Shown: positions 38,356 through 47,311 of the stretch, in pieces
Position numbering within the stretch: the stretch's first letter is position 1
How the letters are laid out: every line of letters starts with the position of its first letter
Assembly (NCBI RefSeq): GCF_056746865.1
Contig: NZ_CM163382.1
Direction: 5' to 3' (one strand)
Length of the DNA: 64,000 nucleotides
The notes under the pieces: generated by a model
What the model was told of the DNA's origin: nothing
Seen by the model: only the letters and a program-made list of their open reading frames with translations
The model's database searches: none
Translations under genes and position numbers: made by a program

Positions 38356-38895
38356 TATCGCGTCCTCAACAATGAATTTTGTGATGCAGTGCCTGGTGCC
38401 TCCAGGTGACGTTAACCAGTTAACAATTAACGCCGGGTTAGTTGATGCTCGTTACGCCAGTAAAAGACCGCCTTACTGCTTTAACTGTTCCGCGTGCGCA
38501 TAGCCGCATTCACCGCATCACAAAATTCACTTTAAAAAGGGCGGCAGAGCAGTCACGGAGTAAAACTGATACCGCCAAACGTCACCAGAAAATTGATAAC
38601 AGAGGGCGTTGCAGCGGGGTTGTCACTTAAGCGTATGGTCAACCTGACAACCCGGTGTCCTCAACGGGGAAGGAATAACCCCGTCATACTTACCGCCGCG
38701 CCATTTCGCGGAGTGTCACAACCGGAAGCGCACGGTCGACGAAAATTTAACGACAGGCTATCTATGAACCAGCTACCTCGCCGTGCGCTTTCGCGTTATG
38801 GTCTGACTTTTCATGGAAATATCCTTTCAGTAAACTGTCAGTGCCGGATTCTTATCCGTGTCCGGCGCACGCACTCTACCTCACCTGTGAATAAA

Positions 38896-39670: not shown

Positions 39671-39907
39671 TCACTCACCTGAGTTTCTTTCCAGCCAGCG
39701 ACGGGCACCATTTTCGGTTTTAAACGTTTTGCTTTTGGTATACGTCATCGCGGTGAACGTACCGTCCTGGTTGGGGAACACGCCACATACCAGAGATTCG
39801 CTGTTGCCAAGATCGATAGTATCCATGCTGACCTCATTTCCCCTTAACGCCGGGGTAGCGGAACAAAAACCTGCTGCATAGTTATTAAAGTTGAACCCTG
39901 CCGTCAT
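39671..39907 (-). CDS. hypothetical early-left protein
   Basis: 78-aa ORF; true start may be the internal Met (MDTIDLG...). Confidence 0.4.
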   Translation of the reverse strand: MTAGFNFNNYAAGFCSATPALRGNEVSMDTIDLGNSESLVCGVFPNQDGTFTAMTYTKSKTFKTENGARRWLERNSGE

Positions 39908-40010
39908 GTTCTTACGCCTCGGGCTGGCTACTTAACCCCTGACCACTGCCGGGTAACTCGAAGTATTTCCCTGCGTTCTGTGGGGCGGGGTGGGTTGGTA
40001 TGTTGTTAAT

Positions 40011-40024
40011 GTAACAAGAGTTAC
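40011..40024. promoter_or_regulatory. candidate left operator (OL) site
   Basis: GTAACAAGAGTTAC matches the GTAAC-N4-GTTAC dyad also found twice in the cI-cro intergenic region. Confidence 0.5.
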
Positions 40025-40062
40025 CTTTCGAGTCAATACAATGTTGCAAAAGGTACATTTGA

Positions 40063-40093
40063 GGGCATAAAAAACCCGCAATGAATGCGGGTT
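40063..40093 (-). terminator. intrinsic terminator immediately downstream of cI
   Basis: Hairpin aacccgca-atgaa-tgcgggtt with U-run on the minus-strand transcript, 5 nt after the cI stop. Confidence 0.6.
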
Positions 40094-40098
40094 CTGAC

Positions 40099-40773
40099 TC
40101 AGTCTAAGTATTGATGTATTTGTGAAACTTTACCTTTAATGGTGTAACCACCATTCAGTTCGATGGGTTTGTAAAGCGGATTCAGTGACAACAAATAGAT
40201 GTTTGGTCCGTCAATCGCAACTTTTTTTAGTGTTACGTTTGGCGTTCCTTCCAATTGGATTAAGATTATTTTTCCCACCAGTTCTCTAATGTTACTTGAG
40301 CATGGTGTGATCAGCACGGTAGATCCGTCGGGGATGGTTGGGAGGCCGTTAGAGTTTGTCATCGCATCTCCCTCAACATGCAATAAAAAAGAGTTTTCAG
40401 CGGTTTTTGTCATGACATCAACCCAGTTATTAATACCAGGAATCTTGGTTACTGGACAACTCATATCCCAATAACCAGCCTGTTCCCACGTTAAAACGGG
40501 CAACCGGGCGATGTTGTCACTAATGTAAGGGTACTGATTCAGACGCAGATCATCGGTTTTATCGTGACAGTCCTTTCCATAAAGAATCCATTCAGGAGAT
40601 TTGGAAAGCAATTTTGACAGTAGATACAAATTCTCACCGTCAGGTTTTGAAGAGCCATTTTCCCATTTTGTTACGGATACACGAGATATGCCGATTGCTT
40701 TCGCAACCTGCTGTTGGGTTAATCCAACGTCTTTTCGACGATTCCGAATACGTTCGCTGATAGTGTTTTTCAT
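40099..40773 (-). CDS. cI: CI-type prophage repressor (N-terminal HTH plus C-terminal S24 LexA-like peptidase)
   Basis: HTH LTQQQVAKAIGISRVSVTKWENG; S24 domain with catalytic GDAM serine context and a downstream Lys; start trimmed to MKNTISER... leaving a 91-bp operator region before cro. Confidence 0.85.
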   Translation of the reverse strand: MKNTISERIRNRRKDVGLTQQQVAKAIGISRVSVTKWENGSSKPDGENLYLLSKLLSKSPEWILYGKDCHDKTDDLRLNQYPYISDNIARLPVLTWEQAGYWDMSCPVTKIPGINNWVDVMTKTAENSFLLHVEGDAMTNSNGLPTIPDGSTVLITPCSSNIRELVGKIILIQLEGTPNVTLKKVAIDGPNIYLLSLNPLYKPIELNGGYTIKGKVSQIHQYLD

Positions 40774-40835
40774 GTAACCAATGTTACTACCAAGTGATGT
40801 TGCTATGGTTGACATTGTTATGTAACTATTGTTAC
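40774..40835. promoter_or_regulatory. right operator region (OR) with two dyad sites between cI and cro
   Basis: GTAACCAATGTTAC (40774-40787) and GTAACTATTGTTAC (40822-40835); consensus -35 TTGACA at 40809-40814. Confidence 0.55.
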
Positions 40836-40864
40836 CCTTCTGCTCGAAATAACAGGAGAGTTTT

Positions 40865-41080
40865 ATGTTCAAAGATGATGTTCTGCGCTATTTCAAAAAA
40901 AAGCGACTAGTAGCTGAGGCTCTTGGAATTTCACATGTGGCTGTTGTGCGGTGGAAAGCAGTTATTCCCAAACTTCGCGCAATGGAACTGGATGAAATTA
41001 CTAACGGTGAATTGAAATACAACCCAGAACTTTACAAGAAGCAGGATAGCACCTCGAACGAAGGAAAGAATGATTCATGA
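40865..41080 (+). CDS. cro: Cro-like HTH regulator
   Basis: 71-aa ORF divergent from cI across the operator region; HTH AEALGISHVAVVRW. Confidence 0.7.
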   Translation: MFKDDVLRYFKKKRLVAEALGISHVAVVRWKAVIPKLRAMELDEITNGELKYNPELYKKQDSTSNEGKNDS

Positions 41081-41502
41081 AAATCAAGCATGAACACATC
41101 CGCATGGCGATGAATGTCTGGGCGCATCCGGACGGCGAAAAAGTACCGGCTGCGAAAATTACCAAAGCGTATTTCGAGCTGGGAATGACGTTCCCGGAAC
41201 TGTATGACGACAGCCATCCGGAAGCCCTGGCCCGTAATACCCAGAAAATTTTCCGTTGGCTGGATAAAGACACCCCTGATGCTGTTGAAAAAATGCAGGC
41301 TCTGTTACCGGCGATCGAAAAGGCGATGCCGCCTTTGCTGGTGGCCCGTATGCGCAGCCACAGTTCTGAATATTACCGTGAGATCGTCGAACGGAGGGAT
41401 CGGCTGGTGAAGGATGTCGATGATTTTGTTGCGTCAGCGGTTGTTTTGTATGACCAGATGAATCGCGGCGGCCCGGCAGGGAATGCTGTGGTGATGCACT
41501 AA
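41077..41502 (+). CDS. CII/YdaT-like early regulatory protein
   Basis: 141-aa ORF directly after cro (ATGA overlap), in the position of Rac ydaT / lambda cII; sequence similarity not verified. Confidence 0.45.
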   Translation: MKIKHEHIRMAMNVWAHPDGEKVPAAKITKAYFELGMTFPELYDDSHPEALARNTQKIFRWLDKDTPDAVEKMQALLPAIEKAMPPLLVARMRSHSSEYYREIVERRDRLVKDVDDFVASAVVLYDQMNRGGPAGNAVVMH

Positions 41503-46897: not shown

Positions 46898-47155
46898 ATA
46901 CAGCGAACGCCATTGGTTTAGTTGGATATTTACTGTGCCGGACAAAAACGGTTTGCGGGGAAATCTTAGTTAAGTAGAATGACTGCGGGTGCTTGAGGCT
47001 ATCTGTCTCAGGCATGAACACCAAAAGGCAGATAGAGAAAAGCCCCAGTTAACATTACGCGTCCTGCAAGACGCTTAACATTAATCTGAGGCCATATCTA
47101 TGCGACACATAGAGATTAGCCTCTTACGGACCGAAAGGTCAAGGAGAAGCAGGCT

Positions 47156-47311
47156 ATGAAGCAGCAAAAGGCGATGTTAATCGCCCTGATCGTCATCTGT
47201 TTAACCGTCATAGTGACGGCACTGGTAACGAGGAAAGACCTCTGCGAGGTACGAATCCGAACCGGCCAGACGGAGGTCGCTGTCTTCACAGCTTACGAAC
47301 CTGAGGAGTAA
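47156..47311 (+). CDS. hok: Hok/Gef-family type I toxin (51 aa)
   Basis: MKQQKAMLIALIVICLTVIVTALVTRKDLCEVRIRTGQTEVAVFTAYEPEE matches the recalled HokD/RelF sequence; short overlapping upstream ORF 47100-47159 (mok-like); 3' stem-loop 47319-47340. Confidence 0.8.
   Translation: MKQQKAMLIALIVICLTVIVTALVTRKDLCEVRIRTGQTEVAVFTAYEPEE

What the first reader, a model, noticed from the sequence alone, without database searches (positions are those of the whole stretch)
40011..40835. Three copies of a GTAAC-N4-GTTAC dyad flanking the repressor gene
GTAACAAGAGTTAC (40011-40024, left of the cI terminator), GTAACCAATGTTAC (40774-40787, abutting the cI start) and GTAACTATTGTTAC (40822-40835) share identical 5-bp arms with a 4-bp spacer. 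Their placement at OL and OR with a consensus TTGACA -35 at 40809-40814 fits a CI operator set, and the motif defines this phage's immunity specificity.
Basis: partly seen in the sequence, partly recalled or inferred. Interest (0 to 1): 0.35.

Follow-up and report, generated by a model that had tools for sequence, protein, structure and literature searches.

The report
Operator sites of a prophage repressor
The three GTAAC-N4-GTTAC repeats are very probably the DNA sites where this E. coli prophage's repressor and Cro proteins bind to keep the virus silent; this is an ordinary P22-type genetic switch with a recognition sequence that I did not find described.

Summary
GTAACNNNNGTTAC occurs exactly three times in 64 kb (0.04 expected), at 40011, 40774 and 40822. 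The sites flank a 224-aa HTH+S24 repressor gene that faces a P22-type cro gene in a lambdoid E. coli prophage inserted next to potC.

Comparative evidence supports the operator reading:
- 54 distinct repressor-cro intergenic regions (repressor identity 42-100%) keep the dyad at two places exactly 48 bp apart.
- The cI-proximal copy abuts the conserved cI ATG.
- One to three further copies lie behind cI at a PL-like promoter.
- A matrix trained only on distant relatives ranks the three window sites as the top three.
- Heteroimmune relatives (P22/21, mEp390, IME1369_02, mEp460) share the layout but have different arms, which track the recognition-helix residues.

The motif is also not private to this phage: ZF40, AH07 and vB_EcoS-733R5 share it.

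Verdict: a new member of a known kind. No binding experiment exists.

Side note: the repressor's S24 nucleophile serine is alanine, which predicts a repressor that cannot cleave itself.

The parts
40011..40024 (.). OL1: exact dyad GTAACAAGAGTTAC. It overlaps the spacer and the first 3 bases of the -10 of the leftward PL-like promoter.
   Evidence: Ranked 3rd of 64 kb by a matrix trained on distant relatives. Positional homologue of the promoter-proximal OL site 75-81 bp after the cI stop in relatives.
40008..40036 (-). PL-like promoter: TTGACT (40036..40031), 17-bp spacer, TACATT (40013..40008), with a TG extended -10. It drives the ydfA(DUF1391)-ydfB-ydfC-dicF-dicB operon.
   Evidence: It is the only sigma-70 consensus match found in 39800-41100. 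Downstream genes were identified, and DicF RNA at 38539-38590 (-).
40043..40056 (.). OL2 (degenerate): GTTGCAAAAGGTAC, 32 bp from OL1 and upstream of the PL -35.
   Evidence: Rank 13 of about 64,000 positions. Relatives nearly always carry a second OL site 31-35 bp from OL1, at 43-47 bp after the cI stop. One close variant has GTACCTTTTGTAAC here.
40066..40094 (-). Intrinsic terminator of the repressor gene (hairpin AACCCGCA/UGCGGGUU followed by a U-run).
   Evidence: Fold: dG -16.7 kcal/mol, z = -3.8 against shuffles.
40099..40773 (-). Repressor gene (cI/c2-like), 224 aa: N-terminal HTH_3 with recognition helix SRVSVTKW, and a C-terminal S24 peptidase-like domain in which the nucleophile Ser is Ala137 (codon 40365..40363).
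   Evidence: Pfam. PDB sequence hits to lambda cI and the P22 c2 N-terminal domain. Start codon fixed by homologues. Ser-to-Ala substitution.
40774..40787 (.). OR3: exact dyad GTAACCAATGTTAC abutting the cI ATG. On the cI strand it contains TAACAT (40786..40781), the best candidate -10 of a PRM-like promoter that would give a leaderless cI mRNA.
   Evidence: Abuts the ATG in 53 of 54 distinct relatives and is offset by 1 nt in L007. The PRM assignment is inference.
40799..40812 (.). OR2 (degenerate): GTTGCTATGGTTGA, 23 bp from OR1 and 25 bp from OR3. It overlaps the PR -35.
   Evidence: The positional homologue in relatives keeps xxAAC-N4-xxxAC in 53-54 of 54 regions and is a near-perfect site in some, such as CAAACAACAGTTAC. 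The window copy scores weakly (rank 300 of 64,000). Close variants have GTAAC instead of GCAAC in the cI-proximal arm.
40809..40838 (+). PR-like promoter: TTGACA (40809-40814), 18-bp spacer, extended -10 TGtTACCCT (TG at 40830-40831, hexamer at 40833-40838). It drives cro, ydaT-like and the replication genes.
   Evidence: Sequence. In 54 distinct relatives the hexamer is TAC[C/A][T/C]T with T6 invariant, and the T of the TG is conserved in 53 of 54. The scan tool did not call it because the -10 matches only 3 of 6.
40822..40835 (.). OR1: exact dyad GTAACTATTGTTAC, covering the PR spacer, the TG motif and the first 3 bases of the -10.
   Evidence: Top-scoring site of the window. Invariant in 51 close loci.
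40865..41080 (+). cro gene (P22_Cro family, 71 aa; recognition helix HVAVVR-W).
   Evidence: Pfam E = 2.9e-16. The helix residues fit the published Cro code for an A+5/C+6 half-site (PMC6649833).

Best explanation
The dyads are the operators of a P22-c2-type lysis/lysogeny switch belonging to an uncharacterised immunity group. Dimers of the 224-aa repressor, and of the divergently encoded P22-type Cro, recognise the 14-bp site GTAAC-N4-GTTAC. OR1 (40822) and OL1 (40011) sit at the same position, centred about -16.5, over the TG motif and -10 of PR and PL. A bound repressor there would occlude RNA polymerase. That would shut off cro/ydaT/replication to the right and the ydfABC-dicF-dicB operon to the left. 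OR3 (40774) abuts the cI ATG and contains the likely PRM -10 (TAACAT), so occupancy by Cro, or by excess repressor, would turn cI off. The cI mRNA from PRM would be leaderless, as in lambda. Degenerate OR2 and OL2 are probably filled cooperatively. What is shown: the sites exist, are non-random, are conserved in position across the family, and co-vary with the recognition helices. What is inferred: the binding itself, the promoter start points, cooperativity and the leaderless PRM.
For: - Statistics: 3 exact sites against 0.04 expected.
- Context: an HTH+S24 repressor facing a P22_Cro gene, with a YdaT (cII-analogue) gene and replication genes to the right.
- PL: TTGACT-17-TACATT with its operator over the -10.
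- Conservation: 54 distinct OR regions from repressors 42-100% identical keep both dyads exactly 48 bp apart with OR3 against the ATG. OL carries 1-3 copies in relatives.
- Independent matrix: trained on relatives under 80% identical, it ranks the window's three sites 1, 2 and 3.
- Polymorphism: 1 of 28 operator columns varies against 14 of 49 outside (p = 0.006).
- Known relatives: phage 21/P22, whose operators are annotated in the phage 21 record (described for both by Poteete et al. 1980, cited in PMC6649833), have the same 0/+22/+48 layout with OR3 against the c2 ATG but arms TTAAG.
- Heteroimmune relatives: mEp390/Lys8385Vzw (GTAGG), IME1369_02 (GTAAG) and mEp460 (CTAAG) keep the layout with other arms and other helices.
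- Cro code: Cro helices follow the published rules Ala H3 with A+5, Ser H3 with G+5, Lys H6 with C+6 and Gln H6 with G+6. The window Cro has Ala H3 and Arg H6, read here as Lys-like, for half-site xGTAAC (PMC6649833).
Against: - No binding, footprint or transcript-start data exist for this repressor, and I found none in the literature.
- PR's -10 is weak (TACCCT), and the scan tool called neither PR nor PRM.
- OR2 in the window is a poor match, with 4 of 10 arm bases off (rank 300). Its left arm is confounded with the PR -35.
- If PRM starts at the ATG, OR2 is centred near -32.5, on top of the PRM -35 region and one helical turn closer than lambda's -42. The lambda-style activation step therefore cannot simply be transferred.
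- The 54 regions are related by descent, so conservation counts are not independent events.
Confidence: 0.87

Rival explanations
1. The conserved 14-mers are mainly promoter architecture rather than protein-binding operators. The GTTAC arm supplies the TG motif and the TAC of an extended -10 at PR and PL, and the symmetry is incidental.
For: The right arm of OR1/OL1 does coincide with TGnTAC of the predicted extended -10, and OR3 contains TAACAT.
Against: This does not explain the equally invariant distal arms. It also does not explain the perfect two-fold symmetry, the recurrence at OL2 and OR2 upstream of the -35 elements, or the switch of both arms together with the recognition helix in mEp390, P22 and IME1369_02.
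Confidence: 0.04
2. The dyads are bound by a different protein of the module (the YdaT/cII analogue or a host factor), while the repressor recognises some other sequence.
For: No direct binding data tie the repressor to the dyad. YdaT is also a DNA-binding protein of this module.
Against: The characterised YdaT of CP-933P recognises TTGATT-N6-AATCAA, and a 1-mismatch copy sits where expected at the end of cro, not at OR/OL. Dyad-bearing relatives L007, L010, L011 carry a Phage_CP76 gene and L005 an unassigned ORF where the window has ydaT; all keep a homologous repressor and a P22_Cro-family cro. Arm changes track the repressor and Cro helices.
Confidence: 0.04
3. The matches are chance or a coding artefact. 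On this view the 40774 copy is conserved because it encodes the N-terminus (SNIGYM) of a 238-aa repressor, as annotated by PGAP.
For: PGAP and other gene callers extend the ORF to 40815, so the dyad lies inside their CDS.
Against: Distant homologues start at the ATG next to the dyad (219-221 aa). The extension is unconserved apart from the dyad-encoded residues. The same dyad occurs in clearly non-coding DNA at OR1 and OL. Chance expectation is 0.04.
Confidence: 0.02

Closest known systems
P22 c2 / phage 21 cI repressor with OR and OL operators (Poteete et al. 1980, as cited in PMC6649833; P22 c2 N-terminal domain-DNA structures 2R1J and 3JXB)
   Same: The repressor has an HTH N-terminal domain homologous to that of c2 (E = 1.3e-12) plus an S24 domain, and faces a divergent P22_Cro-family cro. 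Operators have 5-bp arms around a 4-bp centre. OR sites lie at 0/+22-23/+48 bp with the cI-proximal one against the repressor ATG, and OL sites lie behind the repressor's terminator.
   Different: Repressor identity is only 36%. The arms are GTAAC rather than TTAAG. The recognition helix is RVSVTK instead of NVAISQ, so the two should be heteroimmune. OL has 2 sites here (one weak) against 3 annotated in phage 21. The S24 nucleophile Ser is Ala here. The PL operon is of the dicBF type and I found no N antiterminator gene or nut sites beside PL.
Lambda cI/Cro switch (OR1-3, OL1-3, PR, PL, PRM)
   Same: cI is flanked by PL/OL and PR/OR. Operators overlap the promoters. The cI ATG sits at the edge of OR3, which suggests a leaderless PRM transcript. 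The C-terminal domain is homologous to that of lambda cI (E = 2e-14).
   Different: Sites are 14-bp with the symmetry axis between base pairs, not 17-bp. The distance between the PR and PRM starts would be about 72 bp instead of 82 bp (own knowledge), which puts OR2 over the PRM -35. Cro has the all-helical P22 type of fold family. The cII role is taken by a YdaT-family protein.
CP-933P (E. coli O157:H7) PaaR2/YdaS/YdaT switch (PMC8630535, PMC9986795)
   Same: It is also an E. coli prophage immunity module with a cro-like gene followed by ydaT, has OR and OL operator sets, and has a leaderless repressor gene. A YdaT-type inverted repeat lies at the end of the cro-like gene (41070-41087 here).
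   Different: The repressor is unrelated (PaaR2, with a toxin-antitoxin pair). The operators are different (18-bp palindromes with consensus GTTTAGTAA).
Qin prophage DicA/DicC control of the dicBF operon (PMC10448788)
   Same: The leftward operon under OL/PL here is ydfA-ydfB-ydfC-dicF-dicB, the same cargo that DicA represses in Qin.
   Different: The repressor here is a full-length HTH+S24 protein with its own dyad. I did not compare it with DicA or with the DicA operator.

Membership tests
P22 c2-type immunity switch (repressor, Cro and operators) | Repressor with a c2-like HTH N-terminal domain and an S24 (LexA-like) C-terminal domain | tested here: met
   Pfam HTH_3 3.5e-17 and Peptidase_S24 1.8e-16. 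P22 c2 N-terminal domain chains 1ADR/2R1J E about 1e-12, and lambda cI E = 2e-14.
P22 c2-type immunity switch (repressor, Cro and operators) | Divergently transcribed cro of the P22_Cro family, about 90 bp from the repressor start | tested here: met
   PF14549 E = 2.9e-16. The ATG-to-ATG gap is 91 bp here and 90-95 bp in most relatives.
P22 c2-type immunity switch (repressor, Cro and operators) | Two-fold symmetric operators with 5-bp arms and a 4-bp centre, repeated at OR and OL and overlapping PR and PL | tested here: met
P22 c2-type immunity switch (repressor, Cro and operators) | Three OR sites at about 0/+23/+48 bp | tested here: inconclusive
   OR1 and OR3 are exactly 48 bp apart. The +23 site is degenerate in the window (rank 300) but clear in relatives.
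P22 c2-type immunity switch (repressor, Cro and operators) | Same immunity specificity as P22/21 (TTAAG arms, recognition helix NVAISQ) | tested here: not met
   The arms are GTAAC and the helix is RVSVTK. It is therefore a distinct specificity within the family.
P22 c2-type immunity switch (repressor, Cro and operators) | Repressor and Cro physically bind the operators and repress PR/PL | not testable with these tools
   This needs EMSA, footprinting or reporter assays. I found no published data.
SOS-inducible LexA/cI-type repressors (RecA-stimulated self-cleavage) | Ser nucleophile (G-D/E-S-M), general-base Lys and an Ala-Gly cleavage site | tested here: not met
   The Ala-Gly site (A99-G100) and the K183/K184 pair are present, but the nucleophile position is Ala137 (GDAMTN). 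It aligns with the Ser of lambda cI's VEGNSMT motif. Distant homologues keep Ser.
Cro evolutionary code (Hall, Lefevre and Cordes 2005, as summarised in PMC6649833) | Ala H3 pairs with A at +5, and Lys H6 pairs with C at +6 of the half-site | tested here: met
   The window Cro helix H-V-A-V-V-R has H3 = Ala and H6 = Arg (Lys in L002 and L005). The half-site xGTAAC has A at +5 and C at +6. Relatives with Ser H3 have G at +5 (mEp390, Lys8385Vzw), and those with Gln H6 have G at +6 (P22/21, IME1369_02, mEp460). The numbering alignment is my own.

The most novel reading that the evidence does not exclude
This widespread E. coli immunity module (at least 80% of the 1.2-kb region is present in 701 of 5,426 complete genomes) may be an SOS-blind, locked version of a P22-type switch. 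The repressor keeps its operators, its Ala-Gly site and its Lys, but has lost the S24 nucleophile (Ser to Ala137). This holds in 50 of 51 close copies and, with a different Ala codon, in the Salmonella branch. The GTAAC operators would then hold a dicF/dicB cell-division-inhibitor operon and the lytic genes permanently off, unless an anti-repressor or Cro takes over. In addition, OR2 would lie over the PRM -35 rather than beside it, which implies an autoregulation logic different from lambda's.
Probability: 0.4. Interest if true: 0.5.

Novelty: new member of a known kind. Interest (0 to 1): 0.3.

Why it matters
The result gives the operator sequence, promoter layout and true start codon for an immunity type carried by about one in eight complete E. 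coli genomes. The start-codon finding corrects the common 238-aa annotation. The same operator also occurs in isolated phages of Pectobacterium, Pantoea and E. coli. That allows prediction of cross-immunity between prophages and incoming phages, and of what controls a dicBF-type toxic operon in these strains. It also adds a clean data point (Arg/Lys H6 with C+6; arms GTAAC versus TTAAG, GTAAG, CTAAG and GTAGG) to the recognition rules of P22-type repressors and Cros. It does not reveal a new mechanism.

Tried and rejected
- I looked for the immunity region in sequenced isolated phages. Only the first ~118 bases (the ydfA-side flank) match at nucleotide level, and the best repressor match is 42% identical.
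- I searched the paper library for the six exact 14-mers, for GTAAC/GTTAC together with operator terms, and for ZF40 repressor operators. Nothing relevant turned up.
- I considered that CP-933P's characterised PaaR2/YdaS operators might be the same system. They are not: the consensus is GTTTAGTAA.
- I considered OL2 at 40034-40047, 23 bp from OL1 by analogy with OR2. I rejected it (score -18, rank 1735) in favour of 40043-40056, which matches the 31-35 bp OL spacing of relatives.
- I tested the simple rule that CI and Cro carry the same residue before the conserved Trp. It holds for the GTAAC group (K and R/K), P22/21 (Q and Q) and mEp390 (G and G). It fails for Lys8385Vzw (G and E), so I dropped it as a rule.
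- I looked for a PRM with a leader upstream of OR3. No convincing -10 or Shine-Dalgarno sequence was found, hence the leaderless model, which remains an inference.
- Extra near-matches to the dyad elsewhere in the window (6001, 43659, 40439 and others) lie in unrelated or coding DNA. I treat them as chance, although sites with up to 2 mismatches are about twice as frequent as expected (35 against 18).

Full report
**Observation**

- 40011-40024: GTAACAAGAGTTAC
- 40774-40787: GTAACCAATGTTAC
- 40822-40835: GTAACTATTGTTAC

They are the only exact matches to GTAACNNNNGTTAC in 64 kb. Dinucleotide-preserving shuffles give 0.04 matches on average, and none of 100 shuffles reaches three. TTGACA is at 40809-40814.

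**Context**

The window holds a lambdoid E. coli prophage inserted next to potC, with an integrase, an excisionase and a RecE-like exonuclease.

- The gene between the dyads (40099-40773, minus strand) encodes a 224-aa protein with an HTH_3 domain and a Peptidase_S24 domain. It is homologous to the P22 c2 N-terminal domain (E about 1e-12) and to lambda cI (E = 2e-14).
- Facing it are a P22_Cro-family cro (40865-41080), a YdaT-family gene, an HTH_36 replication protein and a DnaC-like ATPase.
- To the left, on the minus strand, lie DUF1391 (ydfA), ydfB, ydfC, DicF RNA (38539-38590) and dicB. This is a Qin-type dicBF operon.
- The 1.2-kb immunity region is 100% identical in E. coli CFSAN061770. 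At least 80% of it is present in 701 of 5,426 complete E. coli genomes.
- No isolated phage in the collection has a repressor more than 42% identical.

**True start of the repressor gene**

PGAP and other gene callers annotate 238 aa starting from the ATG at 40815, which would put the 40774 dyad inside the coding sequence.

Homologues argue against this. Proteins of 219-221 aa begin at the Met aligned with 40773 (MK[TN]..ERIR). The upstream 'extension' is unconserved except for the residues NIGY, which are simply the translated dyad.

**Comparative test**

I fetched the genomic context of repressor homologues from several sources:
- 88% and 87% identical (E. coli)
- 70% (Salmonella)
- 66%
- 52% (including Hamiltonella defensa)
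- 44% (Kosakonia and a metagenome)
- 80 IMG/VR viral contigs
- Isolated phages ZF40, vB_EcoS-733R5, AH07 and mEp390

In all 54 distinct cro-cI intergenic regions whose repressor carries the recognition helix SRV[ST][VI]TKWE, the dyad occurs twice, with 0-1 mismatches (variant arms GGTAC and ATTAC). The two copies are always exactly 48 bp apart start to start. The cI-proximal copy abuts the ATG in 53 of the 54 and is offset by 1 nt in L007.

A position matrix built only from loci under 80% identical to the window repressor ranks 40822, 40774 and 40011 as first, second and third of about 64,000 window positions.

Among 51 near-identical loci (19 haplotypes), 1 of 28 columns in OR1+OR3 varies, against 14 of 49 intergenic columns outside the operators (Fisher p = 0.006). 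The hot spots lie just outside the dyads.

- **OR2.** At +23 bp from OR1, relatives carry a third site whose arms keep xxAAC-N4-xxxAC in 53-54 of 54 regions. It is near-perfect in some, for example CAAACAACAGTTAC in vB_EcoS-733R5. The window copy at 40799-40812 (GTTGCTATGGTTGA) is weak, ranking 300th. Close variants improve one arm from GCAAC to GTAAC.
- **OL2.** Behind cI, relatives almost always have two sites 31-35 bp apart. The window's second site is GTTGCAAAAGGTAC at 40043-40056, which ranks 13th in the window.

The likely set is therefore OR1, OR2, OR3, OL1 and OL2.

**Promoters**

- **PL.** The scan tool finds one sigma-70 match in the region, on the minus strand: TTGACT (40036..40031), a 17-bp spacer, then TACATT (40013..40008), with an upstream TG. 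OL1 covers its spacer and the first three -10 bases.
- **PR.** By the same geometry PR is TTGACA (40809-40814), an 18-bp spacer, then TGtTACCCT (hexamer at 40833-40838). The scan misses it because the -10 matches only 3 of 6. Across the 54 distinct regions the hexamer is TAC[C/A][T/C]T with an invariant final T, and the T of the TG motif is kept in 53 of 54.
- **Operator position.** OR1 and OL1 are thus both centred about 16.5 bp upstream of the inferred start points. Occlusion of RNA polymerase is the natural mechanism. This step is inference.
- **Terminator.** A hairpin plus U-run at about 40066-40094 on the cI strand separates cI from OL/PL (dG -16.7 kcal/mol, z = -3.8).
- **PRM.** On the cI strand, OR3 contains TAACAT seven bases before the ATG, and there is no Shine-Dalgarno sequence. 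The second central base of OR3, which is the final T of that hexamer, is invariant in 54 of 54 regions. In IME1369_02 and mEp460 the equivalent site lies 23-28 bp upstream of a repressor gene; IME1369_02 has a Shine-Dalgarno-like GGGAGAAAG, mEp460 has no clear one. I infer a PRM whose start lies just after OR3, giving a leaderless cI mRNA here. Leaderless starts are documented for lambda cI and for paaR2 of CP-933P (PMC8630535). This is not shown.
- **An open point.** With that start, OR2 would be centred near -32.5, over the PRM -35 region. Lambda-style activation from -42 cannot be assumed.

**Specificity**

Phage 21, whose repressor scored identically to P22's, has annotated operators with the same layout. 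They start at 0, +22 and +48 bp, and the last one sits against the c2-type ATG, but the arms are TTAAG-N4-CTTAA.

Other relatives with different recognition helices keep the layout with different arms:

| Phage | Arms | OR1-OR3 spacing |
|---|---|---|
| mEp390 | GTAGG-N4-CCTAC | 48 bp |
| Lys8385Vzw | GTAGG-N4-CCTAC | 47 bp |
| IME1369_02 | GTAAG-N4-CTTAC | 49 bp |
| mEp460 | CTAAG-N4-CTTAG | 49 bp |

The Cro recognition helices of all these groups obey the published Cro code: Ala H3 with A+5, Ser/Thr H3 with G+5, Lys H6 with C+6 and Gln H6 with G+6 (PMC6649833). The window Cro (H-V-A-V-V-R) has Ala H3 and Arg H6, which I read as Lys-like since L002 and L005 have Lys there; this fits half-site xGTAAC. 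The repressor itself has Lys at the same helix position, where P22 c2 has Gln.

This co-variation is the strongest indirect evidence that the dyads are what the repressor and Cro read.

The dyad and the helix are shared by repressors only 42-45% identical, including those of ZF40, AH07 and vB_EcoS-733R5. The specificity belongs to a broad group.

**Comparison with known systems, and novelty**

This is a member of the P22 c2-type switch family with a distinct operator sequence. I found no paper containing these operator strings or describing the operators of ZF40's repressor.

The subscription literature is not searchable with these tools. In particular, I could not check the 2005 Cordes database of Cro proteins and OR half-sites.

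CP-933P's PaaR2/YdaS operators are different.

My verdict is a new member of a known kind, with modest interest.

**Side observation**

The repressor's S24 nucleophile serine is alanine (GDAMTN; Ala137, codon GCG at 40365..40363). It aligns with the Ser of lambda cI's VEGNSMT motif, which is Ser149 by established knowledge.

- Fifty of 51 close copies share the Ala (GCG).
- The Salmonella branch also has Ala, with codon GCA.
- One 95% copy, the 87% and 66% homologues, and all repressors under 60% identical keep Ser.

This predicts a repressor that cannot cleave itself, and hence a prophage that RecA-stimulated repressor cleavage cannot induce. That needs experimental testing.

Noticed in passing
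window 40363-40365 (minus strand; codon for Ala137 of the repressor): The S24 peptidase nucleophile Ser (G-D/E-S-M, equivalent to lambda cI Ser149) is Ala (GDAMTN), while the Ala-Gly cleavage site and the Lys pair are kept. Fifty of 51 close copies have Ala (GCG), and a Salmonella branch 70% identical has Ala with codon GCA. The other homologues keep Ser. This predicts a repressor that cannot cleave itself and is therefore not SOS-inducible.
   Followed up: partly
window 41070-41087: ATGATTCATGAAAATCAA is a 1-mismatch copy of the TTGATT-N6-AATCAA inverted repeat bound by YdaT of CP-933P. It sits at the same place, the end of the cro-like gene and start of ydaT, so it is probably the cII-analogue site of a PRE-like promoter. 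By count alone it is not significant (3 matches with up to 2 mismatches against 4.25 expected).
   Followed up: partly
window 40774-40815 and locus L001 12200-12916: RefSeq/PGAP and other gene callers annotate the repressor as 238-240 aa from an upstream ATG, so their CDS runs through OR3, OR2 and the PR -35. Homologues show the true start is the ATG at 40773, giving 224 aa.
   Followed up: yes
window 38539-38590 (minus strand): A DicF sRNA (Rfam 76.7 bits) lies in the leftward operon with ydfA/ydfB/ydfC and dicB. The OL/PL operators therefore gate a Qin-type cell-division-inhibitor operon. In strain CFSAN061770 an IS4 is inserted between the exonuclease gene and the DUF1482 gene next to dicB; the window has no such insertion.
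   Followed up: partly
window 40013 (PL -10): The window and CFSAN061770 have TACATT as the PL -10, whereas all 50 other close loci have TACCTT. This is a single-base difference towards the consensus, right at the edge of OL1.
   Followed up: no
window 46987-47158, 2760-2883 and 51650-51854: Other RNA genes found by Rfam: a sok antitoxin RNA (next to hokD in the prophage late region), STnc490 and STnc100.
   Followed up: no
loci L012 (mEp390) and L098 (Lys8385Vzw / Stx2c phages): These phages share the 14-bp, 0/+23/+47-48 layout with the arms GTAGG-N4-CCTAC, and the cI-proximal copy abuts the repressor ATG. This looks like another undescribed operator type, present in Stx-converting phages.
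   Followed up: partly
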